This document shows positions 1,810 to 39,249 of a stretch of DNA of 64,000 nucleotides, piece by piece. Under the pieces are notes generated by a model. The model saw nothing but the letters and a program-made list of their open reading frames with translations. It was not told the DNA's origin and searched no databases. The stretch's first letter is position 1. The number at the start of each line of letters is the position of its first letter. The stretch comes from the human T2T-CHM13v2.0 reference genome, Homo sapiens. The stretch is taken from assembly GCA_009914755.4 (NCBI GenBank), contig CP068257.2:27296001-27360000 (forward strand). Direction: 5' to 3'. The translations under genes and the position numbers were made by a program.

Positions 1810-2030
1810 CGTCATGCCATTAAATAGTTGTGTACTTGTTTGTACAGAAGATATTTCTTGAAAAGAAAGAACACTGCTGACATACTTGCTTGTAAATCTA
1901 TCCACAATATTGAAAACACGCTTCTCACTGCTATTCCACCACAACCTAACCATGGCAGGCAAGTCTTTTAATGTCATATGATAGACTGAACAAGCCAAGT
2001 GTGGAATGTGGTATGGAAGCATTGTTGTTT
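1810..2030 (-). CDS. LTN1: LTN1 downstream coding exon (number uncertain). Starts with 2 nt, then 73 codons: [73 protein letters not shown]
   Basis: Acceptor ttttcctcag|AA, donor ACG|gttagt. Phase matches the upstream exon 3228–3399 (its trailing G + AA gives GAA). Confidence 0.65.
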
Positions 2031-2260
2031 CTGAGGAAAAAACAAATTATTGATTAGTAACATATATTTCTTATATAGAATAACAGACTAATATTAGTAT
2101 TTTCTTTAGAAAGTGATCCTTAATTTCTCAACAATAGTGCTATAGCTCATAAAAACAAACATACCAGAGAAACCAGAACTCTGGAGTATGAGCATCTTTC
2201 CACACATTCAAAATGAACCATAAGAATGGCAAAAGAATTTTTTTTTAAAGTGAAAATCCC

Positions 2261-2668
<408 letters not shown>

Positions 2669-3227
2669 TTAAAGATGCTTGCTGTTATAAATTATGAAAA
2701 GGAGTTTGGCCTCCTTTACTTTCCCCAGAGCTTGCTGAACTGCTGTGCAGAAGTCTTGGAATACCCAACTCAATACTCACAAGATGCAGTCCATCCTCAG
2801 ATCTCCAAGGCATTTAAAAAACTCATATTCTTAGTAAATTGTTTCCAATACTGTAGTACAACCAGATACATGCATATCTGTCCTCTCAGCTCACATGTGA
2901 GCTCCCAGAATGAAATGTTATTCAACTTTATTTCCCCTGATTTATATGCCTATAAAATGTTATCACGTAAGAAATATTTGTTTACAGAGTCAAAAGTTAA
3001 TAGTCTCACCACACTAAGCTTCAAAAATGTATTAAATTCCTCACAGTCTTATGGGTAAAAACTAATTATTCATCCTATTTAGAGAAATATGGAAAATGGT
3101 CAATTTCAACATTCTCATAGCCAGGACCCACCTTTGGGGTTATTCTCCACATTCTCAGGGAAAAGTTTAATTCAACCTAGTCTGAATCTAGTGTCCAAGA
3201 AAGAACATAAACACATATCTTACTGAC

Positions 3228-3399
3228 CTCTAATACTCAGCTGGAGCTCCTCAGTAAAGAATGTTTTAGGGTCCTTATTTGGGACCTCAACTGCTGTCTC
3301 TGCATAGGTTGGATTTTCTGGCATAAGCCTGAACAGGTGATAGAGCAATTTATTCAAACTCTTTGTTTTCCGAAGATACATGGAATACAAAGCCCGAAG
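3228..3399 (-). CDS. LTN1: LTN1 downstream coding exon (number uncertain): [57 protein letters not shown] plus 1 nt
   Basis: Acceptor ttctttgctctccaccag|CTT, donor AGAG|gtcagt. Phase 0 entry matches exon 7922–8108, which ends on a complete codon. Confidence 0.65.
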
Positions 3400-4289
3400 C
3401 TGGTGGAGAGCAAAGAATTTGTTAGTAAACCAAATACACCAAGACAATTGGTATAAAAGAACAACTCAAAGTGTAACAAATTTCCTTTCCTCATAAACTA
3501 GCAGACATTCTATCCCCTCATTATTGTAACACATTTCTAATATCTTTCTCAAATTGTCTTCCTGTATTACAATGCACTCACCTTGGCTTAGAATGTCTGA
3601 GACAAGAAAATCTATTCACCATTCCCACAGATGACTCCCTCACTCTCCTCCCAAGTCTTCCATACATTCCTTCCACACCATTGCCCTTAACCTTTCAAAT
3701 TCCTGCTTAAAACTAATCCCATTTTTATGGCTGACCTCACCCTGTATCAAAAACTCCGACATCCCTTTACGACAGAGAGCACAAACTAGTGGTCCAAAAT
3801 GTCATGGGGGTCTTCTCAGAGTTGTTTTTTCAATCAGGAAATTTCACATAAAAATATGGATTTCTGATTTCTCTTTTAAAAACAGAAAAACGAGCCACCA
3901 GTGGGAGCACTGCAGGTATCTGTGTGAGACCCGTACTTCACAACTCCTGCTTTCCCTCCATAAAGCAGCTTGCATTTTCCACATTGACTTTGCAGTTCTT
4001 TGGTATCTGTATTGGTTTTAAGATAATTTCTACTATATCACATATCTCCTCACAGTACAAAGATATCATTTTCTTTCCCTTTTCTTTTTAAAAAATTTGT
4101 ATTTTTAATTTTTGTGGGTACACAGTAGATATTTATGGGGCATATGAGGTATTTTATAGGCATATAATATGTACTAGGGTAAGTGGGGTATTCATCACCT
4201 CAAGCATTTATCCTTTCTTTGTGTAAAATATAGCATTTTCTGAACACTATGAATACTTAAGTACAAGGATCAAGTCATAGGATTTGGAA

Positions 4290-4600
4290 TTGATTTTTAA
4301 AATATGTTGACCAAAGTGCTCTTATCATCAAACTTAACATCACTAATGAAGGATGAACATCCCAAATCTGAAAATCCAAAATCCAAAATGCTCCATAATC
4401 TAAAACTTGTTGAGCACCAACATGATGCTTAAAGGAAATGCTCCTGGAGCATTTCAGATTTTCGGATCTGGGATGCTCAACCAGTAAGTGTAACAAAAAT
4501 ATTCCAGAATCTGAAAAAATCTGAAATCAGAAACACTACTGGTCCCAGGCATTTTGGATAAGGGATACTCAACCTGTAAAAGAACACAATGACATTATAT
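4290..4600. repeat. Palindromic / inverted-arm interspersed repeat (MITE / DNA-transposon-like; family not assigned)
   Basis: Inverted arms '...aaatgctccataatctaaaac...' and '...ggagcatttcagattttcggatctgggatgctcaacc'; second half-copy at 4500–4580. Confidence 0.35.
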
Positions 4601-5199
4601 GGCTCCTGAGGTAAGACACTGAGAACACATAACAACTTGTGCAGTAAGTACTATTGCTAAAAATTAACCACAATCTAATGAGGAAACGATCAGACAAATT
4701 CACATTGTATGACAGGCTAAAAACAGCTGGCCAAAACAATGACAAGAAAGAAAAGAAAGGTATAGAAATTATAGGTTAAAGAAACTAAAGAAATATGACA
4801 AGCAAATACAAACATGATTCTTGATTGGATCTTCAATAGAGAAGAAAATAAAACTATAGAGATATTACTGGGACAACTGAAAGTATCTAAATAAAAATTA
4901 GATATTATTGCATCAAAATTAAATTTCTTGAGTATAAAAATTATATTATGCTTATGTAGAAACATGTCCGTGATCTTAGGAGATATATGCTTAAATACTT
5001 TTGGTAAAGCATCAAAATGTCTGCAACTTACTTTCAAGTAGATCAGCAGAAAAAAAGTAAATACAGAGAAAGTATGTGCAAATGTAGCAATATGTTAAAA
5101 GATGTATGTAACTTTTTTATCTAAAAGAGTATGTGATTTTCCATTGAATTATTCTTCCAACTTCATTGTTTAATTTTTCAAAACAAAAAGTTAGAGATT

Positions 5200-5720
5200 T
5201 TTAAAAAATTAATCACCAATATCAATGGACTTTTAAAAACACACATATACGACCCAGCAATCCCACTCCAAGGTATACAACACAAGTGAAAACATATTTC
5301 AACACAAAAGCTCGTACACGAATGTTCACAGCAGCTTTATTTTCAATAGCCAAAAAAAAGGAAACAACCTAAATGCCCATTAATGGATAAACAGATAGAT
5401 AAACAAAATGTGATAGATCTACAAAATGGAGTATTATTCAGCCACAAAAATAAATGCAATACTTATGATACATGCTTCAATTTGATAATCTTGAAAATAA
5501 TATACTAAAATAAAAGCCAGACACAAAAGACCAGATATGTGAAATGTCCAGAACAGGCAGATGCATAGAGACAGAACACAGTTTAATGGCTGTCAGGAGC
5601 TGCGGGGTTTGAGAGGAAATGGGAAGTGATTGCTATCAATTACAATGGGATGTTGAAAAGGTTCTAAAATTATATAGTGGTTAACAGTTGCACAACTCTG
5701 TGAATACAGTCAGCCCTCCA
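5200..5720 (+). mobile_element. L1 (LINE-1) 3' fragment (ORF2 C-terminus and 3' UTR)
   Basis: Encodes L1 ORF2-tail-like peptide (...CTRMFIAALF.IAK.WKQPKCP...YSAIK.NE...); typical L1 3'-end sequence. Confidence 0.7.
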
Positions 5721-6895
5721 CTTCCATGGGTTCCACATCTGAGAATTCAACCAATCGCAGATTGAAAACATTTGAGGGGCAAAAAAAGTGATTTAAAAAA
5801 ACCAATACAACAATAAAAATACTAAAAACTTTAATACAGTATAGCAACTATTTCAATAGCATTTACACTGTATCAGTGATAACTAATCTAGAGATGATTT
5901 TAAGTAGTATACAGGAAGATGTGCATAGGTTAGATGCAGATACTATATGCCATTTTATATAAGGAACTTGAGTATTCGCTGGGGTGGGGGTCATGGGAGG
6001 GAGCCTGGAAACAATCCCCAGCAGATATCAAGGGATGACTATATACTAAAAACACCAAACTGTGTATGCTAAGTGGGTAAATTTTATGGTATGTGCAATA
6101 TCTCAGTAAAGCTTTATAAAACAGACACAAAAACATACACATGTACGTATACAACTTTTTCCAGTTCAATCTGATTTGCTAGTTTTTTTGAGAAAAAAGT
6201 TAACCCATGATTTAGGAACATTTAAAGTTTTCCGAAGAAAAATTCTGTTTATTTCAGGATTCATCTAATTAGTATTACTTAGTGGGTTATTCTGGTTTAT
6301 CTGCCCACAGCTCAGTTCAAGTTTCAGACTCAATAATAATAAATGCTGCCGTATAATTTTGCACCCTAACCCAATCCCAGCTTAATGAAAAAGGTGACAC
6401 ATGGCCATTTTCCTAATTTCTGAATATAAAATGAGAACAAAACTCTTATACACAAATGCCTCAATCTGCTGCTATTTTTTAAAGATCAACAATATTTTAA
6501 GAAATTGATGTAAAAGCCAAATAAGGAGCTCTTGAAATATATCATCAGCAAATAAAACTAGCTTAAGTCACAAAAATAAGTGACAGGCCTAAAGAGAAAA
6601 CTAATCTATTTAACAGCTAGATCAATGCTGCTTCTGTGATTTGACTTTTCCCCACAGATATACAAATGCAAAGATGCAAAAATTGATATCTTTGTACCAG
6701 GGTATAGGGTATGAGCAACAACATAAATTATAATTTAAAAATTCCAAAAAGTCACATTGGAAATGAATGCCATGAATACTTAATCACACTAAATGATAAA
6801 CTAAATCTTTTTGTATTGACCTGTCAAAAGAAGGCACATATTTTATTAGGCTAATTCAATCAAAGATTGACAGAGATTTGGATCTTCCTTGTTCT

Positions 6896-6985
6896 TTTTG
6901 AGACAGGGTCTGGCTCTGTCGCCCAGGCTTGAGTGCAGTGGCACGATCTCAGCTCACTGCAACCTCCACTTCCCTGGCTCAAACT
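6896..6985 (-). mobile_element. Alu fragment
   Basis: 'tttttgagacagggtctggctctgtcgcccaggcttgagtgcagtggcacgatctcagctcactgcaacctcc'. Confidence 0.7.
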
Positions 6986-7488
6986 ATCTTCAAGTGGGGA
7001 TCCTTCTAAAAGAAAAACTAGAGAGATCTTTCCAGTTTCTTCTTGGACAAGGTCTTACTTCCTAAACATGAGACAACAGAGACATCTAGTGGCTGCTAGA
7101 ATAATTTGGACAAAATATTTCAGATATTTTCACCACTTAGGTAACAGTTTGAATTATTACATAGGTAATGTTTCACAGATCTCTCTCCAAACAGTGATTT
7201 TCAAGTAAGGTAAATTTCCAATGATGTATTAAGTTATATCTCCACAACAGAGTGACAAACTGACTCCCTCCGAAAAAAAAACAAAAAACACAAGATCCAA
7301 TTCTTTTGAAATCATTACTATGATAGTACAAAATTAAATTATATAAATATTATTTCCTGAAATAAAAGAACCTGGTGACTACATTCAGTTAGAAAAAAGT
7401 TGATCTGGCCACCTATCAGAGTAATTACTTTTGCTTGGAAGGTAAGGTATAAGGGACAGGAGTAAACTTATTAAGCAGATGGAAGTTA

Positions 7489-7800
<312 letters not shown>

Positions 7801-7921
7801 TTTAAAAGATGAGATTAAAACATAAGGATTTTCCTTTTATTAAACTGAAAGGAAGGTATTTAGAACAGTATCAGAAGCATATTAGGACAGAACTATCGAA
7901 AGTTGTCACATATTTATTTAC

Positions 7922-8108
7922 CTGTGATGATGCAGCTTTGAAGAAAGTTAGTATTAATTTCCAAGTGAGAAGGTATCCCAGAACATAACAGAAGTCTTCA
8001 CTCAGTGGTTTAATAGTAACTATCTGTCCAACAGGAATACACCCCAAAACATTTTCTAGTAAGTCCTCTTGAATGCTAAGAAGAGACATCAGTGCTGCTG
8101 GTGGTGAC
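7922..8108 (-). CDS. LTN1: LTN1 downstream coding exon (number uncertain). 1 nt then 62 codons: [62 protein letters not shown]
   Basis: Acceptor tcattgattcttag|G, donor CACAG|gtaaat. Phase matches exon 10371–10608 (its trailing AA + G gives AAG). Confidence 0.65.
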
Positions 8109-10370
8109 CTAAGAATCAATGATTAAACACCACAAGTTTTCTTTATAATTCATTCCTTAACAAATTGACAGTACTTGTAAACTTCAAGCATTTTAGAAAA
8201 ATTTCTCTGTTTTCCAAAAAACGTTTTAAAAATTCCCCTCTATTGAGCCAATTTTAACTCCTAATCTCACATAACAGTAAAATAAAAAAGACATATTATA
8301 GCACTTGAAGGAAAGACATTTTTAGAAAACGTCTCTTTCAATTTTCTAAGTGAAAAAAAATCACACACCCAGAGAAGCCAAATGATGAGTCCAACGTCTT
8401 TCAGTTAGTAGGGGAAACTGTTAGGGATTCTAAATCCTACCCGGCCTTTTATCATCTTATAAAAGACAAAGTGAAGATTAAGACTTCGAACTTTGTCACT
8501 TCATTCTAGTTTCTATTTTATTGCATATTATCTACTTAGTACTATTAAGAAATATCACAATGATACTATTAATCGGATAAACACAGAAAATAATTATGTG
8601 CCTGTTTAAAAAAATCATGATTGTAATCTTTTTAGGAAAATAAATGTACCATTCAGATTAATTCACAACAATGTAAGTTAATTTTCTTCTTTATTGAACT
8701 ACTCTACTCATTTATACTTTCAGGTGAACTTATGAGATTCTCAAAAAGTAAAATACTTAACTCTCTTCTCCATGATACTCTAGCCTGGTTCTCTCCTTTC
8801 ACTTCTGTGATCGTTCTTCCCTTGTGGCTTCCTTCTCCCAGCCCACAAGTACAGGCCTTCTCCAAACTTCTGCTCTTAGGTCTTTTCCTTCAACACCTCC
8901 ATCTCATGTACCCAGCCTTCTATATTCCATACTGATAGTCACTAGATCTTATAAAATACCAGCTCCAAAATCTCTCCACTTTTCACATTGCCCTCCATGC
9001 ATTGTTATTTAACTTCTGCAATCAGCTCCACCTCTGCTTGCTTCTTTTTACAATTCATGTTTCACATTAGTGTCAGAATCGGCTGGTGGCGCCCTATCTC
9101 CTACCAAGTAATGACCAAATCCCCCCAAAAAAGTCATTTTTAAGGCCATTTATTATAGGCCAGGAAGCATTCTGGCCTACAGCATTCTAGCCTATTTCTC
9201 TCTCAGAAATAAGAGAGAGAAATTCCTGCCCTCACAGAACTTACATTCCAGTAAAGAAAGATATTATCAATAAAACTATACATTAAGTGGTAACTACTCA
9301 ATATTCCCCAAGCACATCCTCACATTCATGACTCAGTGCCTTTGTACATGATGTTCTCTTAACTTATGTTGTCTTTCCTGTCCTGCAGAAATGCTACCTA
9401 ACCTTAAAGGTCCAGTTTAAATGCCTCTTCCTCAAAAGAAAGTCTTCCCTTCCTGATGTACATTAATTGTGCCCTCATAACATGCTATCTTATATAGGCC
9501 TAACTGACCTTTAAAAAAAAGTTATCTATCCTTTTTCTTAGCACTTATCATATACTATATTTTCCATAACGCTACAGTATCATCTGTATCAGATAAATTC
9601 CTTAAGGAAAAGAAAGTGCTCACTAAACACTGCATATTCCCCTCAGCATTTAATTAATACTCTGCACAAAGTGGATGCTCAATAGATACTTGAACCGATA
9701 CACTCTTTCCACAGCCACCATATGGCCAAAGATAGTTTTACTGAACAGTAGCAAACGGAAAATGTGATTTAAGAACAATTAAGAGAGTGACACAATCTTT
9801 TGGGTGAAATCTATATTTCATTTATATCTTACAGATAACTAAAAAGATCTATCTGTAGAATGAATATAACTCTATAGCTTCTGTGCTGCTTCAGTCCTCT
9901 AAAGACATTATAAGTGAGATGGATTATAAGAATTTAATAAAACAAATTATTTAAAAAAACCTTACAAGGCTGGCTCTTCTTCTTCATCTCCGTATGACTT
10001 TAGATTATCCTGATCATACTGTGGTAATTCAGGCATCAATCTAGAAATTAGAACATTATTTTTAAATATGTGATATTAAACTGTTTATTAAGTCGTGCTC
10101 AAGAGCAGAAAAACCAATACTTATTTTATAATGAGTAAATGTTTTAATGAGTTTTCTTTAAAATAACTACTATAGCCAGGACTATTGAAATATAAATTGT
10201 GTATAGAGAACAATAACCTAAAAGATGAGGCAACTTAGGGTCCCTATAAGTGAAGCAGTCAGATCTCCTTCTTTTAAAAATTTTACTTTAAATAATTAAA
10301 AGTAAAAACTAAGCATATATTCTATTTTTTTAGACCACTGTAACATTGATTCAATTGGATGAATTCTTAC

Positions 10371-10608
10371 TTGTATAGCATATGATAAACAGCAATTTGC
10401 ACAGGCCTAGCTCTGAAGAGGAGTAATGGGGCCAATGTATTTAACAAAGTCTGGAGATATTCTGGTAAGTTTGTTTTTTGGTCAGCAACTAATCTTGCAG
10501 GAAGTTTGTGACTCAATAGCTGTTCCTTTGAGATATACGTTAATGTTTCACACATGGGTTTCAGCATTGCATTCTGAAAGGATGTTTCAGACACATCTTT
10601 GTTTTCTC
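10371..10608 (-). CDS. LTN1: LTN1 downstream coding exon (number uncertain). 2 nt then 78 codons [78 protein letters not shown], then 2 nt
   Basis: Acceptor tttctttcctttttgtcattag|GA, donor CAA|gtaaga. The 2-nt entry phase is satisfied only if the upstream exon uses its GC donor at 11100. Confidence 0.65.
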
Positions 10609-11100
10609 CTAATGACAAAAAGGAAAGAAACATGCACGTCTCAAAAGAAAGTTAGTATAGCTTAAATGATTCACAAACAATCAAATTTAAGATTTAAGAA
10701 ATCTTTTAAGAAAATGAAATAAAAACTAGACATAAACAATAAAGCAGTCTTAACTAGAAACATGAACTGAATATATATTCCAGTTAATCTCAACTGTTTT
10801 AATGACTTTTATCTGATCCAGCAAATGTTCAATAGCAAGGTTCTATTCACATCATCCATTCATGTTATCTGAAGTATTATTATTTTAATTTGCAACAGTC
10901 ATTGGATACCTTGCCATTTTTCAATTTCTGTCTGTAAAGTAAAGCATAGATGATGCTTCTGAGAAGCCAAGCTTTCTCTTCTGGCTTTTTCTTTTACTAT
11001 TTAGTATTATTTGATTTAAACATCAAAATTTTTGCTTTTGAATTTTTCAGTAAGTCATTTCCAATGAATCAATCTCACTATTATTCCCTTTTTCACTTGC

Positions 11101-11314
11101 CTGTAACAGTCACCAAAATAGGTAAAAGCAAACTGTGGATGCCTTGGGAAAAAAATTCTTTCCATTCACTGATTAGATTTACAGGAAGATTGCCAATGGT
11201 ATCCAGAGTTGTGGAATCAAAGAAAGCACTGAGGTCACAGGCCAAATCACAGCTGACACAGGCAAACAGTTGCACAAGTGGAATAGAATACAATGCCTGA
11301 TTCTCACTTGTTGT
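11101..11314 (-). CDS. LTN1: LTN1 downstream coding exon (number uncertain): [71 protein letters not shown] plus 1 nt; uses a GC donor
   Basis: Acceptor ttattgttttttcag|ACA. Donor ACAG|GCAAGT is a non-canonical GC–AG donor with in-frame TGA immediately after. The alternative GT donor at 11183 (CCT|gtaaat) breaks phase with the next exon. Confidence 0.55.
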
Positions 11315-11657
11315 CTGAAAAAACAATAAAAATGAAATAGGTAAACAGACTTCTACCAGAACACTACAAATAAAGCCAATATAAAGAAAAGCCCCACTTT
11401 CATTTCTTTGAATTTTAAAACGAAAAGCAGTTGAGGTGTGTAATCTCAGGAGAAACATAAAATTTTACATCAAAATAACTTTTTTCTTCAAAATTAAATA
11501 CCATGAATAGAATCATTAATAAACAATTTATTCTCAAGTACCCTTTTTAATTTCTAACCCATGGAAGGAAACACTAAGTCAGACACATTAAATACACATT
11601 TATAATCTTCTCAGTAGCCCTACAAGTTGTAAGTTATTATTTTAAAATAAGAAAATC

Positions 11658-11945
<288 letters not shown>

Positions 11946-12524
11946 AAAAAAAAGAAAGAAAGAAAGAAAGAAAACTGAGTCTCAAATAGTTTAAGTTTAA
12001 AACTCTAAGTCACATAGCTAATAGCAGGCAAAGCAGAGATTCAGACCAATCCAACCCTGACTGACTTGCTGCCTTGGAGCCCACAAGTAATATACCTCTG
12101 GTTGCTTTGGGTCAAAAATTACACTAATTCCCTCTGAATCTGCTACTATTTAATGCATTACTCTCACAATATTCACACAGTATGTTTTAGAAATAATCTA
12201 ATTATAACCAAAAAAGACCAAAATAATTGTCATTAACAGATAAAACCTGAAAGGGCTGTGCTGCAAATATTACAATAAGCTAATGGAGAAGGCATTTTAA
12301 TAACAGGAGATTTGGTCACTGAATGATGCTGGTAGTCATTAAAAATCTATCATTTTACTATTCTGTCAAATAGTAGCTGGTAAGAAGAACATCTATAAAG
12401 TGTTTTAAATTATACAAAGGAACCAATTACAATCATCACTTAAAGAATGAGATTAGTAAATAGTTCTGATGCAAAAGTATGTACAAAAACCCACAAGAGG
12501 TGATGACATATCGGGTTAATTTAC

Positions 12525-12571
12525 CTCCAACCAAGCCAACATGGAGCACATGATGAAGTCCCACTCACTCT
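12525..12571 (-). CDS. LTN1: Candidate small LTN1 exon (..[15 protein letters not shown]), low confidence
   Basis: Good acceptor (ctcatcccctttggcag|) and donor (GAG|gtaaat); 15-codon open frame exiting in phase 0, as exon 11314 requires. Cannot be verified without the cDNA. Confidence 0.2.
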
Positions 12572-14633
12572 CTGCCAAAGGGGATGAGCAGTATTTCAGA
12601 AATAGGGAAAGAAACCGGATTATTTCTATATTTACACCCAGTACCTCTGGACTTGCTTCTGATAGATTACTGTGATAAAGATAAAAACAAAAGACAATAA
12701 AAGATTATATTGACATTCAATTAGAAAGTATGCTACTTTAAATCTTACATACTTATTTATAACTGACTTAAATGTCTACCATAATTTCTCTACAAAATTG
12801 TGACACAGATACGTAATCTTTGTCTGAATTGTATACTGAAGGAAAAACATAGTATAAAGTATCACCTACCAACTGAAAAGAAAAATATCTTCATGCTCTT
12901 TCTTCCAGGATATTATGATTTTTAATATTCCATGTAATAGCTCTCCATCATCTATACTTTTGGTTTGCAGACAAGAATTGAAAATGGCAAGATGTCCAAA
13001 ACCTCCTAAAGTAAAATTCAAAATGAAAATTAAAAATATTTAAGAACTATATCGCTACTATTAAAAAAAAGTCCACTTTGAGAAGTAAAAGACTTTCTTG
13101 AGAAGTGTTCAGGTTAAGAACTCTAATAATGACTTTTATCTAAGAGTCAACAAATGAGCTTATAAGCTCCAAAGGGCAGAGACCCTGTCTCCAAACCCAG
13201 CACCTAGCACACAATAGAGAATTTGGGGGAGGAGAAAGAGTGAATGATGCTGTAATTTAAACTGACTTATGCTGTTTTTGTTTTGGTTTCTTAAGTGCAG
13301 GACATATTCAGCAAACTCATCATTCAAATAAAAAAAACCCTACAGCTACAGAGTAGCTGGAAACAGCAAATGGAAAATAGAACATACTGTTTCATAATTT
13401 ATACATTCATTCACTCAATAGCAGCTAGTACATGTGGTAAACTCTGATGTGGACTCACTCTTTAGAATCTCTACCATTCCTCAAAATCCATCCACTGGTG
13501 TATCTTAACACCCTCTGTCCCCAACCTTCTATCTTACATACCAGCCAAAATGAACAATCTGTACCCTTGTATGTTTTTGTGTACCTGGAATGCCCTTCCC
13601 CAACTATGTCCATATGGAAAACTATTTATCCTTCAACACCCAGTAGAAATACTTCTCTTTGTGAAATTGCCACTAACACCCTCAAAGCAGAGTGGAAACT
13701 CCTTCCTTTCTGCCACTTCTATACATAGCACATCTTTTTGCTACATCGGTTATCACATAATACAACTTTATGTTTGTCTTCTCTACAATAGGAACTACCA
13801 TGTAGCAGGTGCTCATAAATGTTTATTAAATTAATAAACAAATGAAAAGTGCAGTGTTTTAAATACAACAGACGCTATTTTTGCCTTTATATGTTCAATC
13901 ATTGATTGGCTAGGGAGAAATGAGGCACAGCTTTAAAAAGCTATAGATAGAAAAGAAATGGTTAGAAGGTATTTCTGGGCGTAAGTCTTCCCTTAAGGCC
14001 CAGCATTTTTGTACTGTAAAATGGTAACAGCCTCTGTCTAACAACACTCATCCATATAATCTCAGAACAAATCAGCTGTAATTCAATTTACCTCTGCTAG
14101 ATGTGGTCTTATATATTAGAAACAGTTCTTCATCTCAAGCAATAATTAAATTAATGAAATATTTATTATCAAGCAACTAACCATTAGTGCTGCAAAGATC
14201 TTTCTTAGTCCAGCCCAAAAGAGCAGGTATACATTGAGCACTAAATTCTTTCTTTTCTTCTTTTGACAAAAATGGACATAGACTTTGAATGGTATGCAAA
14301 TTGCCTTCAGTTAGTGGAAAAAAACTGTTTAAAGAAAAAAAAAACACAAGTTAGATTTCTTCCAAACATACAGTTATTTTATATATTTCTTTTATTTAGA
14401 CTACTGAAAAAGATAGATGAATAATTCTATCACATATAATTACATAAAAAGAAACTATGATAGATTTAACAAGTGCTGACTTGATGAAATTGGTTTTTTT
14501 TGCTCCTTTTCTCTTTTCTGCATAAATTTTTTAAATGAGCATATATAACTTTTCCCCATATATGATTTTTTAAAATTATACTAGCCACATGACATTATGT
14601 CCTCTTTTAAAAAAAAAAAAAAAAGAGTCAATT

Positions 14634-14951
<318 letters not shown>

Positions 14952-14959
14952 TTAAATAA

Positions 14960-15295
<336 letters not shown>

Positions 15296-17220
15296 TGATA
15301 TTCGTATTTGTGCATATATATAGTTGGGTTTTATTCACATAAAAAGGATGACACTAAACATATTGTTCTATCATTTACCACTTACATATACTTTCTGTCA
15401 GAACATATAAATTATTCTGTTTTAAAGCTACGTAACAAAAATGAACAAAATCTACCTAACACTCCATACTATGGAGGTATCATTATTTAACTATTTCCCT
15501 ATCAGTGAACATTTAGGTTTCTCCCCTCCCCAAATTTTTGCTGTCACACATAATGCTGCAATAAATATCCTTAAGAAGATACTATTCTGTGTATGTATAA
15601 ACACCTCTTTAGGCTAAATTCCTAGAAGTGGAATTGAAAGCTCAAAGGATTTGAATGTATTATATGTTGGTGATCTCAAATTGCTTCTGAAAACACATAA
15701 TCAACTTATACTTTCACCAAATATGCACAGGTGTGACTGTGTAGCTGCACATTTAATGAATCTTTTTGATTCTCGGCAATATAGTGGATAAAACCATTGC
15801 TCTTAATTTGTACTTCTGTCATTATTAGTAAGGCAAATCCTTTCATATTTCACATTTCAGTATTGAGCTACCTTTGACCATTTCATCTATGAATTGCCTC
15901 TTTAAGTCTTTGATAAATTTTCCAATTTGGAGGGTTTTACTGATTTATATAAACTATATGTAGATAGTTTTTTGTTGATTTGCAAATGTCATCTCCCATT
16001 TTGTCATTTGTCCCTGTAATCTTTATATTTTGTCGCAGTTTTCATCTTTCAGAAATACTATATAAAAAATTTTAACTGTCATAAAATACACATAAAATTA
16101 ATGTATTAGCCATTTTAAAGTGTAGAGTTCTGCAGTGTTAAGTACATTCACACTATTGTGCAACTAATCTCCAGAACTCTTCATTCTGCAAAACTGAAAC
16201 TCTACCCACTAACACGAATGCTCCATTCCTCTCTCACCCTCGGCCCCAGGCAACCACCTTCTACTTTCTATCCCTATGAATCTGACTACTCTACAGAAGG
16301 AATCATAGAGTATCTGTCTTTTTGTAACTGGCTTATTTCACTCAGCATAATGTCCTCAAGGTTCATACAGACTGTATGTAGCATGTCAGAATTTCTTTCC
16401 CTTTTAAGGCTGAATAATATCCCATTATATGGTTATACCACACTTTTATTTATCCATTTATCCACTGATGGGCACTTAGGTTGCAAGTTTTCATTTTTAC
16501 AGAATCAAATATATATATATTTACATAAAATGTAAAGGAGAAGGTCTCAGTATTTTTCTTCCAAACACACAACCAATTTTCCCATCATTATTATTTACTC
16601 ACCACAGTGATTTGAAATGCCACCTATATTAAAAACTAAATTCACATTTATGTGTGGATAGGTTTCTGGACTGTATCCACTGATTTGTCTACTCTTCAAT
16701 TTCATACTGCTTAATTACTATAATTCAATAATATATGTTATATTTGGCATGCAGTCTCTTTCACTTTTTTCAAAAATTTCTTATTTTTGAGAACTTTTTC
16801 CTTCAAATGTATACTATGTTCAGAACAGTTTACTAAGTTTTTCAAAAACTGCTGAAATTTTGATTGAGATCGCACTGAAATTATAGATTGACACAATCAT
16901 TTTTACAATTTATCTTCCCACCTTCTTTTGTGATCTTTATTCAAGTTTTATAATTGTAATTTTTTGTTAAGTTTATTTCTAAGTATTTATAGTTTTTGTT
17001 ATCATTGTGAATGGAATCTTCTTTTTCTCCCATACCATTTTTTAAATTGATTACTATGGGTAAATAAGAAAGCTATTCATTTTTGTGTGGTAAATATACA
17101 TCCATCTCCTTAGTAATTAGTTCCAATAGTTCTTTAGCTAATTCCGTATTACTTTTATAATCAGAAAAAAATGTTAATTATGCTAAAAAAGCTAATGTCA
17201 AAAAGTTACATACAGTATGA

Positions 17221-17557
<337 letters not shown>

Positions 17558-17689
17558 TAAATGACATAATTACAAAGAGAGAGAACAGATTAGTGGTTGC
17601 TAGAGATTAGGACAATGGGAAGGGGAAGGGAGGTGGCTGAGGCTATATATGGATAACGCAAGGGATCCTGATAATGAAACTGTTCTGGA

Positions 17690-17790
17690 CTTGACTGTGG
17701 TGGTGGTCACAGATGTGAGCTACACAGAACACACGCACACTCTGTCTCTCACACACACAAACATACACAAACATGTGCATGTAAACTAAG
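17690..17790. repeat. Imperfect (CA)n / CA-rich simple repeat
   Basis: 'cacacgcacactctgtctctcacacacacaaacatacacaaacatgtgcatg'. Confidence 0.6.
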
Positions 17791-18410
17791 TCAACTGACT
17801 GTATCAATGCCTTTTCCTTGGTTGTAATACTATCTAAAGTTATGCAAAACAGTACCACTGGGTAGATGTATGATTTATTCTTTGTATTACTTCTTACACA
17901 TTCATGTGAATCTACAATTACCTCAAAATAAAAAGTTTTTTAAAACTTTTAAGATAAAAAACAGTCAAAATTTAATTTAGAATTCTACTATGCCAGAACA
18001 TGTATCTATCATTTCAGAATTCTTCTTGGTAAATCAGTAAATTCAAAATGCCTCTTGGTAAATCTCAGCTAAGTATTAATTTGAATGCTGAGCTTCACCA
18101 GCACACCCAAACCCACAATCTACTTCTTTGTCTTAAGAACAGACACATTTGTTACATTTCTAGAATATATTTCAATAGGATGATGTTATTTAAGAGAAGA
18201 GTAACTTTCCCTATCACTTCCATATAGCAAATAAAGTGATGGAAAAAGAGTATTAGGAAAGGGCAAAAGAAAAGATTTCTATCAGAAAGATTTCTGGGGA
18301 AAAGAAAACAAGTTCATGAAATGCTGTTGGCTTAAAAAAAAAAGTACAGTATAAAATTCTACAACAAAAGGCTATAGAGTTAAAACTATTTACTTTAAAA
18401 AAAAGGTGTC

Positions 18411-18715
18411 GGCCAGACATGGTGGCTCACACCTGTAATTCCAGGCCTTTGGGAGGCTGAGGCAGCAGGACTGCTTGAGCCCAGGAATTCAAGACCAGCC
18501 TGGGCAACCTGGCAAGACACCATCCCTACAAAATTAAAAAATTAGCCAGGTGTGGTAGTGCACACCTGTGGTCCCAGTTACTCAGGAGGGTGTGGTGGGA
18601 GGATCACTTGACCACAGGAGGTTGAGGCTACAGTGAGCCATGTTCGCATCACTGAACTCCAGCCTGGGCAACAGAGTGAGACCCTGTCTCAAAATAAATA
18701 AATAAATAAATTCAA
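18411..18715 (+). mobile_element. Alu SINE (+)
   Basis: 'ggccagacatggtggctcacacctgtaattccaggcctttgggaggctgaggcagcagg...'. Confidence 0.9.
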
Positions 18716-18880
18716 AGGTATGTCCCTAACCTAAAACAATTTAATTTGCCTTGAAGTCGTTAATTTCCTCATTTCCTAAACCTGTTTTCTTGATTCATTA
18801 GAAATTATTCATTAATTAGGGGTTGCCAAAGTGACCGATTACAGTAAACTACAAAGTAAAAACATTTTAAATAAGAATAC

Positions 18881-18985
18881 CTTTCTTTTCTCTTATAATG
18901 TGGTTTTACTTCATCAGATGAAATGCTTCGGGAAAGGATCAACTTAGCAATAATAAGAGACCACAGTGTGCCATGTTCTCTGGAC
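18881..18985 (-). CDS. LTN1: LTN1 downstream coding exon (number uncertain). 1 nt then [34 protein letters not shown] then 2 nt
   Basis: Excellent acceptor ttttttttctttcctttttcag|G and donor AAAG|gtattc; 34 open codons. Confidence 0.6.
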
Positions 18986-19110
18986 CTGAAAAAGGAAAGA
19001 AAAAAATTATATTCCGTTTTGAAAGCATACTGAATAAAATGTGTAAACACTGGCTAGCTGGATTCCTTTTACAGAATTAAATAAAGCACCTTGTGATGGC
19101 ATCAATTCAC

Positions 19111-19226
19111 CTAAGACTTTGCACCCAAGCAACTGCCAGTAATTATCCAAAGAACTGAGAGTTTCGGCTTTCAACACTCCTTCAAGGCTGGTATTGAGCT
19201 CTCTCATCCCTAGGCAACTCCACAGT
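19111..19226 (-). CDS. LTN1: Probable LTN1 coding exon with uncertain boundaries (...LWSCLGMRELNTSLEGVLKAETLSSLDNYWQLLGCKVL...)
   Basis: 77-codon protein-like open frame on the minus strand (19007–19240). Only weak acceptor/donor candidates fit the phases demanded by neighbouring exons (donors TGGCA|gttgct at 19134 or CTTGG|gtgcaa at 19125; the best-looking donor CTTAG|gtgaat at 19111 breaks phase). True splice sites unresolved. Confidence 0.35.
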
Positions 19227-19937
19227 CTCTTCAGTCCCAATAGGGGAGATGATCTTAGAGATTAGGCTTGAAGACCAGAGGCTGTAGCTGGGAAAAAGAC
19301 ATCTCCCAGAGGACACCTAGGCAGGCTTAAGTTGAACAATCAAAGAGGTTCTTTGGTTCTGAGGAAAGTTGTGTCAACTAAGTAGAATGCGATTGGAAAG
19401 GAAGCCTGGGTCCTCTGATACAGCAAAGCATACTCAAAATACTATCGGCAAGTGATAAACTCCTAAAAAGAAAGCAGTTCAATACAGTAATTTCAAAAAG
19501 CTAAACATCTTACTACTACAACCTCTACAAGGACTGTTTTCATACCTGCCTTCCTAATCTAGGGGAGAGGGCTTTGTGGTCATAACATTAAGACACACCT
19601 ATAACAACATGTAAGATAAAGGATGAATCTGAGAGCACTGGGAGGATGAGTCACAGATAAATCAAAACAACTTCTACAAGCTTCTACTTCTTTTTTGTCA
19701 TCTGACCCTTGTATGTATTTATGGATTTAATAAGACAGGCAGAATACAAATATCTTCCCCTGAGAAGGTTAAATCAAGTATTTAGAATTCATAAACTATT
19801 TATTATTAAGAATAGGAATTATTTAGATCAATCCTCTGACTGAAACATTAGCATGCAGTAGGGTTACCTCTTACAGAAGGCAAAGCCATAAAGAAGTAGC
19901 ATAGTCATTTTAAAAACAAATTGAAAGAGATTCTTAC

Positions 19938-20097
19938 CTGTTAAATAACAGCTGCAAAAGGCCCGACGTATTACCAAGTACACGTAAGTTATCATACGTA
20001 ATATTCATTTTTTGAAGTATTTCACAAAATCCAATTAGAAAAATAGGTGGGTTATCTAATTCTTCACACCACTGCAGTGAATAAAGCAGTTCTGCAA
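19938..20097 (-). CDS. LTN1: LTN1 downstream coding exon (number uncertain). 2 nt then [52 protein letters not shown] then 2 nt
   Basis: Acceptor tgtctcttcttttag|TT, donor AACAG|gtaaga; 52 open codons. The entry phase requires an as-yet-unlocated exon between 23478 and 20098. Confidence 0.6.
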
Positions 20098-20439
20098 CTA
20101 AAAGAAGAGACAGCACCAAATTATGAAAAGCACTCTGTGAACAAACCCTTCAATTACTTTCACTTCTCCACCTTGTTTTCTAACACTGTTGTGCCCACTC
20201 ATCTCAAAACTCCTATGAACTGATTTTTCAAATCTGCTTTGAGATGTTCAAGGACAATGAAAACTGAGAATATTTGTCTGATACAAAATACCACCCTTTT
20301 CCCAAATTCTACTTGGTCCTTTTTCTAATTAGTTAAGAATGTGACAAGAACCTAAGTTACTAGAGATACTGAAAGAATCTTCCTACCATTTTGGCACAAT
20401 TGGTAAAAAGTTCCAGACAGGAAAAACAACTAAGGGACC

Positions 20440-20820
20440 CAAGACCTGAGGTGAGAAGTTCATGGCAAATGGGAGAAATGGGAGACAGTATGATACAGTA
20501 AAAGGACATGAGGCCTCAATTACAGATTGGGGTGGATTCAAATCTGCATCTCTCTCTCAAGCTATATAAATAGTTATCAATTAGGATACTACGAACTACC
20601 TCACAGGACTGCTGTGATAATTAAATGGCCAAGTATCTATCATAAAGCCTGGTATATCATAGGTTTCTAATACACAGTCACAGCTCCCTTTTATAAAGCC
20701 ATGTATAGCTTTTGGAGTCAGAAGCATTGTGACCTGGTTCAAAATCTAATCCTACACTTACCAGCTAAGCAGCTCTAATCAAGTCATGGTAACAAAAACA
20801 ACAATAATATCTGACTAATG
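20440..20820. mobile_element. MIR (mammalian-wide interspersed repeat) fragment
   Basis: '...ttttggagtcagaagcattgtgacctggttcaaaatctaatcctacacttaccagctaagcagctctaatcaagtcatggtaac...' matches the MIR core. Confidence 0.5.
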
Positions 20821-21279
20821 AGCTCGATAAAATTAAAGAAATAATATTGCCAATTTGTAATTAGTAACACAAAAAATTATTACTCTACTTACTAGTTTTG
20901 GATTTGCACAGATTCACCCTGTGAGCAATGTTAAACTACAGGCTTGTTTCCTTTCCCTTAACTAAATGTGAAGGTGGCTGCCCAAAAGAGGTGTTTCAAC
21001 TTTCTTCCACAGAGCATATATTCCCCCTTCTAGTAACTGTGTTACAGCTGAGGGCTTACAAACAAGACTGATACAGGGTTTCTGCAAATTCTCTACCTTT
21101 AATACCATCTTGTAAAAGTCACTCCACCACCTATAATTCTAAACCATTTGTTGAAACAGGGAAATTTGCTGAGGCCCTAAGTCCTCTTAGGGTTCAACAT
21201 TTGAACGTCCACTTGCCAGAAAAAAAATTAGAGCCCGATGAAATACAAAAGTATTCAAAACCATTGGAATCAAAACAGC

Positions 21280-23135
<1,856 letters not shown>

Positions 23136-23478
23136 CAACAGAAAATTCTGAATCCTTGATAAAACACCAAAGCCTCACCCATTTTCTTTAGGGTATGTGC
23201 CACAGGATCTGTTTACATTGATGTCATGACAGCCTGAGTAGCTAACACCAAATTACGATCCACAGTTAACAAGATTATAGCAAGATTCCAATATATTCGT
23301 ATCTAATTTGCAATTTCACATTCACCACTTAAGTAACTTCAAGGTTCTCATCATTAAAATAGGAAAAAGAAAGCTGAAGATTCTTGAATTAAAGATTTAA
23401 ACTGCAGTATAATCAAGATTATTTCAAAATTATATTCATTCATGCATTATGTTATATGTAAATACTCATATATACTTA

Positions 23479-23666
23479 CTTATTTTCTCAAGCTCATTAT
23501 TTTCTAAGACTGTTTCCTTTCTCAGTGCAATTAAGACCATTTTGCTCAATAATGCTGAAGTACACAAATGGCTGGGAAGTGTCTTTATGTCCTGTTCCTT
23601 AAAATCTGTTTTGAAACATTCATAATTCAAACTCAATCTTCCCTCTAAAAGAGGTCTATGTAACCA
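23479..23666 (-). CDS. LTN1: LTN1 exon 16 (putative): [62 protein letters not shown] plus 2 nt
   Basis: Acceptor gtattcttttcacag|TGG, donor AAG|gtaagt (consensus). 62 open codons entering in phase 0, continuing exon 15. Confidence 0.6.
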
Positions 23667-24049
23667 CTGTGAAAAGAATACGTTATATACAAAATTATTT
23701 ATTACCTAAGCAATTGAGACTGAACAAAAATGAAGTTGTGAGAATATTTATTACCAAAACCACAGAAACCTAGAAGTTTGTTTTCTTTTACAGGAAATTA
23801 TCAACATGTGTATTTCTTTAAGACTCCTTAAGTACAGAACTAGGTCCTAAGTCTTTGTACCATGCCCACTGCCACTGTCAAATGGTGTCTTGCAAAAAGC
23901 AAACATCCAGTATATGAGCATACAAAGACATCAAAGCAAAGCAAAATACTCATTTTATTTATGTTTTTCTTCCCCAAAATAAAAATATTCAAGCTTGCAT
24001 GAAATCCAAACTTCAGAATGAGATATGTACTCTTCAATTTCCAAAATAC

Positions 24050-24194
24050 CTGCATAGGAAGAGACTGCCTCATCTTTTCCCATTCACTGTCGTTCGGCAT
24101 TACACTTCCAATATAAACTCCCATAAGATAAGAATCTTCACTCTCTAGAAGTGTATTTAGCAAATCATCAACAGCAGACAAGAGGACTTGGAGA
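24050..24194 (-). CDS. LTN1: LTN1 exon 15 (putative). 1 nt then [48 protein letters not shown]
   Basis: Acceptor tctctgcattatttttag|T, donor CAG|gtattt. 1-nt entry matches the AG left over by exon 14 (AGT gives Ser). Confidence 0.7.
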
Positions 24195-24887
24195 CTAAAA
24201 ATAATGCAGAGAACTTAACTGTTGTAGTTACGCTATGACTAGTTTGAATACCCCAATACATATTAAATACCCTATAATAGCTCACCTGAACAAAAAGAAA
24301 TGATGAAAATAAAAAGAGGTAAGTGACATTCCCCCACCGATGACACACCAACATAACAGTCAAACTGGGGAGGTAATCCAATATTTATCATTTGAAATCT
24401 AGTGTTGCTTCCTATCTATCTCAGAATGAAGAGGACCTGACCTATTTCAGACCAGGTATTTCAGAAATACAGCTACCTTATGAAATGCAGCACTATTTTA
24501 CCTAAACCCAATATCCTCTAAATGCATTCTCTCTTCTCCTTTATTATATGGATTTAGGTATGAGAGGTAAAATATACTTGCAATTCAACATCTTAAAACA
24601 CTGCCTACCTGTCCCCAAAAAATAAATAACCAAGAACAATCAGTACATGTGGTGACCATGAGAGGCTACAATGCACACCAGCCTATGACAAAGGATAGTA
24701 TCACCATCACTTTACTGTCTATAAGTTATGAGTCCAGCAGGTATGTTATAGCAAATTATCCTTCAATTAACTGGCAGTTTAAATGGATGGTCATTGAAAC
24801 AAAATGGTTTTGGAAAAATTCGTTTGGGTCTTTTCATAAGAGTCCTATAGATTTGTTACCTAACAAGTCACTTTTCATTTCTCTTTT

Positions 24888-24995
24888 TTTTAAGAGATGG
24901 CATCTCACTATGTTGCTCAGGCTGGTCTCAAACTCCTGGAGGTCTCAACTGATCCTCCCACCTCAGCCTACTGAGTAGCTGGGATTATAGGGACG
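24888..24995 (-). mobile_element. Alu fragment (minus orientation)
   Basis: 'gagatggcatctcactatgttgctcaggctggtctcaaactcctgg...cctcagcctactgagtagctgggattatag'. Confidence 0.7.
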
Positions 24996-25103
24996 AGCCC
25001 TACAAGTCATTTTTCATAGGCACTCACACTGATCATGGAATCTAATTTAAGGACACTGTTCAAGTATAAAAGAGACACTGAAACCAAGCTCAAAAAAGGT
25101 TAC

Positions 25104-25257
25104 CTGTTGATATCCAAAGATGAAGCCTGAACTTGGTTCTTCAGCCACAGAGCAGACAAATGTAGGAAGGTACTCTCTTTATATGAACTGTCAGTTTGAT
25201 GAACCAATAAATTTACACCAGAGAGCCAAGTATTTTTCAGTTTACAGATAAGAAAAT
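25104..25257 (-). CDS. LTN1: LTN1 exon 14 (putative). 2 nt then [50 protein letters not shown] then 2 nt
   Basis: Acceptor gattttag|AT, donor AACAG|gtaacc. The G left over by exon 13 plus AT gives GAT. Confidence 0.65.
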
Positions 25258-26175
25258 CTAAAATCAAGATGTCAACAGGAATTTGTAATCTCACTGAATT
25301 AACTCTCATCAGCACAAAATGTTTTAAACAACTCTACAGATCTGAGATTTTTTTAAATACCATTTAAAAAAGAAAAATTTTAAATTGCCATTCAAAATTC
25401 AATTGCCAAACAAAGCAACTGTGTCATAAACATGCAATCATACAAGCTAGCACGTATCATATAAATGTAAAATGGTAAGATTTTTAAAGTTACATTTTTT
25501 ATGCTTGAACTTATTTACAAGAGTTGTCCTTTTGGAGACATTTTTAAAAAAATTATTACACCATTTCCAAATACAGAAGTTAGTATTTAAGAAAGGGTTG
25601 GTAGCCAATGATGGGCAGAAAAAAAAGAGAGAGAGAAAGAGGAAGGAAGAAGGAAAGAAAAAAAGAAAGGAAAGAATGAAGGGTGGGAGGAGGAGAGCTC
25701 TCTATAGATAGTATTTTTTTATGTTCCTTTCACAAATAAGTCTGAATTAGCATATAAGGCAAGAATATAGTCCTTAAAAAGATAATTTCAATTCTATTTT
25801 GATATACACCAAAGATTGAATGTTTTTACTATAATAAAGGGATATTATTATCCCCCTTTTACAAATGAGGAAACTAAGACATCAAGAAATTAAGGAACAT
25901 GCCAGAACTACTGAATGGACTAAGATTCCACCTAATCAATTATGGCTCATTCCAAATTTCTTTGAATATCAAGTGAGATCTTTAGAAATAACATCTACGT
26001 ACATCTTTAACTTGCTTTCTAGAGCTGAAAGTGTTTAAGACTGTAGCCCTTTACTCAAAATGCTTTAAACTTTCAAACACATTATAATTCAATTAATAAA
26101 GCCTGGGCACTTACACTCACTATGAAGGTCAGAGCCGGAGATTCCCAACAAAACATTTGAGCAGTAGGCTATTAC

Positions 26176-26415
26176 CTGGCAAATGTGTTTTTTCTTTGCT
26201 CTGAGCACATAACTGAAAGAGAGTTAATAATAAATCTTCAGATGATGGCATTAGCAAGCATCCTTTCGCTGAGCTGAAATAGTTATAGGCCACATCACAG
26301 ATAAAAGACACTGATGAGTCACTGCTTTCAGCTTCTGATAATTTCTTTGTTTTGAATAAAGTTTCATGAAGTCTAACAATGATTCTTTCAACATATACGT
26401 CTCCAATCAAGTAAT
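26176..26415 (-). CDS. LTN1: LTN1 exon 13 (putative). 2 nt then [79 protein letters not shown] then 1 nt
   Basis: Acceptor cctttttttctccag|AT, donor CCAG|gtaata. 79 open codons; phase matches exon 12. Confidence 0.7.
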
Positions 26416-27117: not shown

Positions 27118-27235
27118 TGAATGAGTAAGTCCTGTTATTTTTAACCAATAACACATAAGCTGAGCCCCATGCAATCCCCCACAAAGGAGAAATGGACTAT
27201 TCCCCATTAGAAAACAAAAGCCATATTTGTCCTAC

Positions 27236-28524: not shown

Positions 28525-28749
<225 letters not shown>

Positions 28750-32625: not shown

Positions 32626-32667
32626 CTGAAAAAAGAAAAAGAGTTAGAAACAATCTGCTAGAACAAC

Positions 32668-39245: not shown

Positions 39246-39249
39246 TGTT

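What the first reader, a model, noticed from the sequence alone, without database searches (positions are those of the whole stretch)
11095..11190. Probable second GC–AG donor in a downstream LTN1 exon (ACAG|GCAAGT at 11100), preferred over a nearby GT donor
The exon beginning [15 protein letters not shown]… has two possible ends. A GT donor at 11183 (CCT|GTAAAT) leaves phase 0. A GC donor at 11100 (ACAG|GCAAGTGA) leaves 1 nt and is followed immediately by an in-frame TGA. Only the GC donor makes the next exon (10608–10371, 2-nt entry, 78 open codons) translate (G + GA gives GGA). The open frame also continues protein-like (…[23 protein letters not shown]) up to the GC site. Two GC–AG introns in one gene would be unusual. 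Alternatively both donors are used and define isoforms.
Basis: inference. Interest (0 to 1): 0.55.

Follow-up and report, generated by a model that had tools for sequence, protein, structure and literature searches.

The report
Known GC–AG splice donor in LTN1
The flagged site is the real but ordinary 5' end of an intron in the human listerin (LTN1) gene that starts with GC instead of the usual GT, a rare known intron type, and the junction is already part of the standard LTN1 protein sequence.

Summary
Confirmed, and ordinary. The gene lies on the minus strand. One coding exon, the 22nd counted from the ATG, spans 11314..11101 and ends CAG|GCAAGTGA, with the GC at 11100-11099. Joining it to the next exon (10608..10371) gives 151 residues identical to residues 1257-1407 of the listerin chain in PDB 3j92/9gy4. 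A 27-exon model built from the window matches that chain 1-1625 in one stretch.

The nearby CCT|GTAAAT is just the codons Pro-Val-Asn. Using it as a donor shifts the frame and gives an early stop. It pairs poorly with U1 (-1.6 against -8.2 kcal/mol) and is absent in one mammal-like relative.

The GC donor is present in every mammal-like contig recovered and in three or four sauropsid-like ones. Two related sauropsid-like sequences and the most divergent vertebrate have GT. An intronless, mRNA-like contig from another mammal crosses the same junction.

A second GC donor exists at exon 2 (AAA|GCAAGT, 53450). At about 0.87% GC-AG per human intron, two in a gene of this size is expected in about 2-3% of cases.

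Use of both donors could not be tested without RNA-seq.

The parts
11101..11314 (-). LTN1 coding exon 22, counted from the ATG exon. 214 nt, phase 0 in, 1 nt left over. Encodes residues 1257-1328 (TTSENQ...LVTVT + G of Gly1328).
   Evidence: Acceptor ttgttttttcag|ACA. 100% match to PDB listerin.
11093..11103 (-). GC 5' splice site, positions -3..+8: CAG|GCAAGTGA (GC at 11100-11099). 8 of 9 core positions are Watson-Crick complementary to the U1 snRNA 5' end; the only mismatch is +2C. The TGA at 11095-11093 is in frame if the intron is read through.
   Evidence: The same CAG|GCAAGT is found in contigs L003-L010, L016 and L017.
10609..11100 (-). Intron 22, 492 nt, GC-AG, U2-type. No GCATCC 5' splice site and no TCCTTRAY branch motif.
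   Evidence: Alignable along its whole length among five mammal-like sequences.
10651..10657 (-). Candidate branch site TACTAAC. The branch A is at 10652, 44 nt upstream of exon 23. Other mammal-like sequences have TTACTCAT here.
   Evidence: Inference from the consensus only.
10609..10630 (-). Polypyrimidine tract and acceptor tttctttcctttttgtcattag|G. Pyrimidine fraction is 0.89 over -20..-3, against a gene mean of 0.76.
10371..10608 (-). LTN1 coding exon 23. 238 nt, phase 1 in. Encodes residues 1328-1407 (G)[10 protein letters not shown]...VYHMLYK. Donor CAA|GTAAGA.
11175..11185 (-). Rejected candidate GT donor CCT|GTAAATCT (GT at 11182-11181). These are the codons CCT GTA AAT = Pro-Val-Asn inside exon 22.
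   Evidence: Frameshift and stop if used. In-register U1 duplex -1.6 kcal/mol. CCT GCA GAT in L004 and CCT GTG AAC in sauropsid-like loci.
53450..53653 (-). LTN1 coding exon 2 (residues 15-82). Its donor AAA|GCAAGTTT (GC at 53449-53448) is the gene's other GC-AG intron (intron 2, 493 nt, acceptor at 52956).
   Evidence: Read-through codons in other species.
1810..59524 (-). The part of the LTN1 coding region held in the window: 27 coding exons from ATG 59524 to exon 27 (2030..1810), residues 1-1625 of 1766. The remaining C-terminal exons lie beyond the window start.

Best explanation
The site is the constitutive 5' splice site of a U2-type GC-AG intron: intron 22 of human LTN1 (listerin, E3 ubiquitin ligase) on the minus strand.

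**Shown.** The exon ends CAG and the intron starts GCAAGT. Joining 11101 to 10608 reproduces the reference listerin protein across Gly1328.

**Inferred from established knowledge of GC-AG introns.** U1 snRNP recognises the site through an otherwise perfect consensus (-3 to +6), which offsets the single C:A mismatch at +2. A pyrimidine-rich acceptor, a consensus-like branch site and a short 492-nt intron help. The intron is then removed by the major spliceosome like any GT-AG intron.

The upstream CCT|GTAAAT is coding sequence, not a functional donor. The TGA after the donor is incidental.

The GC state is old. It is shared by all sampled mammal-like sequences and several sauropsid-like ones. 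This is compatible with neutral persistence of C at +2 in a strong consensus context.
For: 1. The GC-spliced exons are 100% identical to PDB 3j92_w/9gy4 listerin 1257-1407.
2. The full 27-exon model aligns 1-1625 to 1-1625 in one stretch, 3672 bits.
3. The GT-donor version shifts the frame to a stop.
4. Shifting the junction by 1-2 nt would need non-canonical dinucleotides, as the sequence shows.
5. The in-register U1 duplex is -8.2 kcal/mol with 8 Watson-Crick pairs. That is in the upper part of the gene's 27 donors, against -1.6 for the GT site.
6. CAG|GCAAGT is present at the homologous exon end in L004-L009 (mammal-like, 76-92% aa identity) and in L003/L017, L010 and L016 (sauropsid-like).
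7. The intronless mRNA-like contig L011 from another mammal (85% nt identity to the human CDS) crosses the same junction as ...ATC G|GA GAA AAC = AIGENKD.
8. There are no U12-type motifs.
9. Literature: GC-AG is 0.865% of human U2 introns, with the rest of the 5' splice site closer to consensus (PMC1557818; PMC2490688; PMC3167603).
Against: - No human RNA-seq junction reads or transcript annotation could be consulted. The human evidence is at protein level, from a PDB sequence that derives from the reference cDNA.
- The species of L011 is unknown, so its own genomic donor dinucleotide is not known.
- U1 pairing energies are a crude proxy; MaxEntScan was not available.
- Constitutive as opposed to regulated use is inferred, not shown.
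Confidence: 0.95

Rival explanations
1. Both donors are used: GC at 11100 and GT at 11182 form an alternative 5' splice-site pair that defines two LTN1 isoforms.
For: GC donors are enriched among alternatively spliced introns and in alternative-5'ss events (PMC3167603; PMC7242645). The GT site has GTAAAT and is conserved in placental-like sequences.
Against: - Use of the GT site with exon 23 shifts the frame to a stop after 15 codons, so it would be a nonsense-mediated-decay substrate, not a protein isoform.
- U1 pairing is only -1.6 kcal/mol, with no G at -1 or +5.
- The GT is explained by the codons Pro-Val-Asn. It is GCA in L004 and GTG AAC in sauropsid-like loci.
- The one spliced contig recovered (L011) uses the distal junction.
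Confidence: 0.04
2. The C at +2 is kept by selection as a deliberately weakened donor. It would tune LTN1 output through slow splicing, or through intron retention that runs straight into the TGA and gives listerin truncated before its RWD-RING end.
For: The GC state is retained in every mammal-like lineage sampled and in three or four sauropsid-like ones. There is an in-frame TGA two codons into the intron. Regulated GC donors are known, for example let-2 and ING4 (PMC2490688; PMC3167603).
Against: - 44% of ordinary intron-22 columns are also invariant among the five mammal-like sequences, so an invariant +2C is not evidence of selection.
- One sauropsid-like clade has GT with the same exon structure.
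- The TGA is not conserved: L005 reads GCAAGTGTAAAA, and sauropsid-like loci read GCAAGTAT.
- The GAA/CAA enhancer density of exon 22 is average, 4.7 against a gene mean of 5.1 per 100 nt.
Confidence: 0.05
3. The GC is a sequencing error or a rare allele in this window, and the true donor is GT.
For: None specific. A single C/T difference is all it would take.
Against: The same C is present at the homologous position in at least nine independent contigs from other species and runs.
Confidence: 0.01

Closest known systems
The standard exon-exon junction of human LTN1 (listerin; 1766-aa protein as deposited in PDB 3j92 and 9gy4)
   Same: The junction at Gly1328 (…LVTVT-G-ENKD…) is exactly the one produced by GC donor 11100 and acceptor 10608. 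The whole window model matches residues 1-1625.
   Different: Nothing about the junction differs. The window differs from the PDB chain at one residue seen here: Ser (TCA, 36290..36288) instead of Leu403.
U2-type GC-AG introns in general (about 0.8-0.9% of human introns; Sheth 2006 PMC1557818; Churbanov 2008 PMC2490688; Kralovicova 2011 PMC3167603)
   Same: - GC at +1/+2 and AG at the 3' end.
- The rest of the 5' splice site is at full consensus (CAG|GCAAGT).
- The intron is short and the acceptor is pyrimidine-rich.
- The state switches between GC and GT across vertebrates.
   Different: This one is a textbook-strong example. By contrast, the gene's other GC donor (exon 2, AAA|GCAAGT) lacks the usual G at -1.
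Regulated GC donors that act as alternative-splicing switches (C. elegans let-2 intron 10; human ING4 GC(N)7GT), as described in PMC2490688 and PMC3167603
   Same: A GC donor with a GT dinucleotide nearby. Here GT lies 82 nt upstream, and another lies 4 nt downstream at 11096.
   Different: Neither nearby GT keeps the reading frame and both are weak U1 matches. There is no evidence of regulation.

Membership tests
U2-type GC-AG intron | Intron begins GC and ends AG at the boundaries that reproduce the expressed sequence | tested here: met
   11100-11099 = GC and 10610-10609 = AG. The spliced product is identical to PDB listerin 1257-1407. Shifts of 1-2 nt give non-canonical ends.
U2-type GC-AG intron | The remaining 5' splice-site positions are close to the U1-complementary consensus (A/C)AG|G[C]AAGT | tested here: met
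   CAG|GCAAGT: 8 of 9 Watson-Crick pairs, in-register duplex -8.2 kcal/mol.
U2-type GC-AG intron | Not U12-type: no GCATCC at +1..+6 and no TCCTTAAC-like branch site | tested here: met
   Neither motif occurs in the 492-nt intron.
U2-type GC-AG intron | The junction is observed in transcripts | tested here: inconclusive
   The human evidence is protein/cDNA-derived only. An intronless mRNA-like contig of another, unidentified mammal crosses the same junction. No human RNA-seq was available.
Alternative 5' splice-site pair (GT 11182 / GC 11100) giving protein isoforms | Both donors keep an open reading frame with a downstream acceptor | tested here: not met
   GT donor plus exon 23 gives a frameshift and a stop.
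Alternative 5' splice-site pair (GT 11182 / GC 11100) giving protein isoforms | The second donor has usable strength and is conserved as a splice site | tested here: not met
   -1.6 kcal/mol, no G at -1 or +5. GCA in L004, and codon-level conservation only.
Alternative 5' splice-site pair (GT 11182 / GC 11100) giving protein isoforms | Junction reads from both donors | not testable with these tools
   No RNA-seq or transcript annotation is accessible.
Human LTN1 (listerin) gene | The exons in the window are collinear with, and essentially identical to, the listerin protein | tested here: met
   The 27-exon model of 1625 aa aligns to chain 3j92_w 1-1625 in one stretch, E = 0, 3672 bits. Alu sequence in the introns fits a primate genome.

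The most novel reading that the evidence does not exclude
The +2C of the exon-22 donor, held since before the mammal-sauropsid split, is a selected 'weak point' that sets listerin dosage. It would act through slow splicing or retention of intron 22, which terminates translation two codons in and removes the RWD-RING end. Together with the weaker, mammal-only GC donor of exon 2, it would make LTN1 sensitive to U1 or SR-protein levels.
Probability: 0.04. Interest if true: 0.35.

Novelty: already known. Interest (0 to 1): 0.1.

Why it matters
It matters little beyond correct annotation. The result shows that a frame-based reading of raw sequence correctly recovered a non-GT donor that naive GT-only exon finding would miss. 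Choosing the GT site would have truncated and frameshifted LTN1.

The practical relevance is for variant interpretation. At this donor a C>T change at +2 (11099) should be benign or strengthening. Changes at -1, +1, +3, +4 and +5 are likely to be more damaging than at an average GT donor, because the site depends on the rest of the consensus. This is an inference from PMC3167603 and PMC1557818.

The cross-species pattern is a small, tidy illustration of GT/GC switching (PMC2490688), not a new phenomenon. It comprises an old GC at exon 22, GT in one sauropsid-like clade, and a GC at exon 2 found only in mammal-like sequences.

Tried and rejected
- **Protein database.** It holds no full-length vertebrate LTN1. 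The searches returned only single-exon ORF fragments from host DNA in public runs. I used these as a source of orthologous genomic DNA instead.
- **Listerin sequence.** I had no copy of it. I mapped stop-free minus-strand segments of at least 50 aa against the PDB. I found the three short exons by pattern, partly guided by my recollection of the sequence. I then verified the assembled model.
- **Motif statistics.** CAGGCAAGT alone is not enriched in the window, so the motif count is not evidence.
- **Literature.** No paper holds both 'LTN1' and 'GC-AG'. The supplementary lists of GC-AG genes (PMC7242645, PMC3167603) either do not mention LTN1 or are not held.
- **Metagenome scan.** It gave one locus (L017), identical in exon 22 to L003. 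Searches failed or timed out.
- **Rfam.** Nothing in 9000-13000. The plus-strand ORFs over the site (79 and 116 aa) are antisense to the coding exons. I did not pursue them.
- **Selection on +2C.** Rejected as unsupported. 44% of ordinary intron columns are equally invariant.
- **Single origin of GC.** It cannot be claimed. With L012 as outgroup, the neighbour-joining tree places the GT pair and the GC trio as weakly supported sister groups (about 60% bootstrap). 'One gain plus one reversal' and 'two gains' are therefore equally parsimonious.
- **Taxon identity.** It could not be determined for any contig. 'Mammal-like' and 'sauropsid-like' are my inferences from identity levels and intron sizes.

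Full report
**What is there.** The window is primate-like: Alu sequence lies just upstream of the site. The gene is on the minus strand. An exon begins after ttgttttttcag at 11314 and reads [15 protein letters not shown]... in frame 0. It ends at 11101 and is followed by GCAAGTGA, with G at 11100 and C at 11099. It is 214 nt long and leaves one base over. Reading through gives GGC AAG TGA. The internal CCT|GTAAAT has its GT at 11182-11181 and would leave phase 0 after 132 nt. The next exon is 10608..10371, with acceptor cattag|GAG and donor CAA|GTAAGA. It is open only if it receives one base.

**Which donor is used.** Splicing 11101 to 10608 gives 151 residues identical to residues 1257-1407 of the 1766-residue listerin chain deposited with PDB 3j92 and 9gy4, across ...[16 protein letters not shown].... 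Splicing from 11183 gives ...[19 protein letters not shown]. Moving the junction by one or two bases would need CA..GG or GG..TA intron ends, so GC-AG is the only conventional reading.

**Gene model.** To place the site in context I mapped stop-free minus-strand segments against the PDB chain. I enumerated the GT/GC/AT...AG/AC junctions that keep the residue numbering. I located three short exons and assembled a 27-exon model from ATG 59524 to 1810. Its 1625-residue translation aligns to listerin 1-1625 in a single stretch. The flagged exon is coding exon 22. The last roughly 141 residues lie beyond the window start.

**The 'first' GC donor.** Of the 27 donors in the model, 25 are GT and two are GC. 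These are exon 22 (CAG|GCAAGTGA) and exon 2 (AAA|GCAAGTTT, last exon base 53450, acceptor ttttag|GCT at 52956). For exon 2, GC-AG was the only solution. GC-AG makes up 0.865% of human U2 introns (PMC1557818). At that rate, two or more among 27-29 introns is expected in about 2.3-2.6% of genes of this size. Abou Alezz et al. report that most GC-AG-containing transcripts have a single such intron and that few protein-coding genes have more than two (PMC7242645). So the pairing is uncommon but not remarkable.

**Strength of the sites.** In register with the U1 snRNA 5' end, the exon-22 GC site forms 8 Watson-Crick pairs out of the 9 core positions. Only +2 is mismatched, and the evaluated duplex energy is -8.2 kcal/mol, which places it among the better donors of the gene. 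The CCT|GTAAAT site gives -1.6 kcal/mol and has no G at -1 or +5. A GT 4 nt downstream (CAA|GTGAAA, 11096) gives -1.8 and is out of frame. The downstream acceptor is 89% pyrimidine over -20..-3, against a gene mean of 76%. TACTAAC lies with its branch A 44 nt upstream of exon 23. There is no U12-type 5' splice site or branch motif. This is the pattern described for GC-AG introns: the rest of the donor adheres to consensus and compensates for the +2 mismatch (PMC1557818; PMC2490688; PMC3167603). GAA/CAA enhancer density in exon 22 is average.

**Other species.** The protein database returned only single-exon ORFs from vertebrate DNA in public runs. I fetched the underlying contigs.

| Donor state | Contigs | Group (my inference) and aa identity to human |
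|---|---|---|
| CAG\|GCAAGT | L004, L005, L006, L007, L008/L009 | mammal-like, 76-92% |
| CAG\|GCAAGTAT | L003/L017, L010, L016 | sauropsid-like, 66-72% |
| CAG\|GTGAGTAT | L001/L002 | sauropsid-like |
| CAG\|GTGGGTAT | L013-L015 | sauropsid-like |
| CCA\|GTAAGT | L012 | most divergent sequence, 54% |

A neighbour-joining tree of the two exons gives 100% support for the two main clusters. Support for the arrangement inside the sauropsid-like cluster is only about 60%. One ancient T>C with a later reversal and two independent T>C changes are therefore equally parsimonious. Either way, the GC state is fixed in all mammal-like sequences sampled. This is not evidence of selection for C. 44% of ordinary intron-22 columns are equally invariant among the five mammal-like sequences, and T is evidently tolerated. 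The taxa could not be identified, and the group labels are my inference.

**Transcript-level support.** L011 is an intronless contig 85% identical to human CDS positions 3135-4875. It continues into the C-terminal exons and crosses the junction as ...GCT ATC G|GA GAA AAC... (AIGENKD). It is an mRNA-derived assembly or a processed copy from another mammal, and it shows the same junction position. It has one frameshift in a T run.

**The GT site as an isoform donor.** CCT GTA AAT encodes Pro-Val-Asn. The triplets are CCT GTG AAC in sauropsid-like loci and CCT GCA GAT, with no GT, in L004. Its conservation is therefore codon conservation. Its use with exon 23 would create a premature stop. I rate a meaningful second isoform at about 4%. 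Low-level noise splicing cannot be excluded without RNA-seq.

**Exon 2 donor, followed up in passing.** This donor is phase 0, so the read-through codon reports the dinucleotide: GCN = Ala and GTN = Val. ORF fragments read KLK-AS-F in five mammal-like clusters, KLK-VR-F in one mammal-like cluster, and KLK-VG-V in seven sauropsid-like clusters. The last group includes the two clusters that sit on the same 38-kb contigs as L003 and L017. The exon-2 GC donor therefore looks mammal-specific. This fits the reported accumulation of GC donors in mammals (PMC2490688). It is also the weaker site, with A at -1 and an in-register U1 energy of -1.4 kcal/mol.

**Verdict.** The feature is the ordinary, already-incorporated GC-AG junction of a reference human gene. 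No paper in the library mentions LTN1 together with GC-AG, but the junction is implicit in the reference protein. Novelty: already known. Interest: low.

Noticed in passing
window 53442-53452 (-), exon 2 donor AAA|GCAAGTTT: This is the gene's other GC-AG donor. It lacks G at -1 and pairs weakly with U1 (-1.4 kcal/mol in register), which is atypical for GC donors. Read-through codons indicate GC (Ala) in five mammal-like ORF clusters. They indicate GT (Val) in one mammal-like cluster and in seven sauropsid-like clusters.
   Followed up: partly
window 36288-36290 (-): Codon 403 is TCA (Ser) in the window, where the PDB listerin chain has Leu (TSSSESS against TSSLESS). This is a single-residue difference, presumably a variant.
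   Followed up: no
window 32584-32625 (-): A 42-nt, phase-0/phase-0 mini-exon encodes VDLKWNSLLKIIEK (residues 708-721). It lies between the 810-nt exon 10 and exon 12. Its symmetry makes it a natural candidate for in-frame skipping.
   Followed up: no
window 1882-1893 (-) and 1956-1964 (+): A consensus-like CAA|GCAAGT lies inside coding exon 27 and is not used in the reference protein. A second exact CAGGCAAGT lies on the plus strand, also within the span of exon 27 (antisense to the coding strand). Both illustrate that the motif alone is uninformative.
   Followed up: partly
window 10651-10657 (-): Human intron 22 carries a perfect TACTAAC. The other mammal-like sequences have TTACTCAT, with a 3-nt difference in the alignment.
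   Followed up: no
L011:740-800: The intronless LTN1 contig from another mammal has a one-base frameshift in a T run within exon 22. It could be an assembly error or a processed pseudogene, and this was not resolved.
   Followed up: partly
window ~11650-11700 (-): The end of an antisense Alu in intron 21 lies about 340 nt upstream of the exon-22 acceptor. Kralovicova et al. report that flanking Alus can hinder removal of GC-AG introns. This was not examined here.
   Followed up: no
window 1-1809: The window ends inside intron 27. The exons for about the last 141 residues, which by my recollection hold the RWD and RING part, are not in the window.
   Followed up: yes
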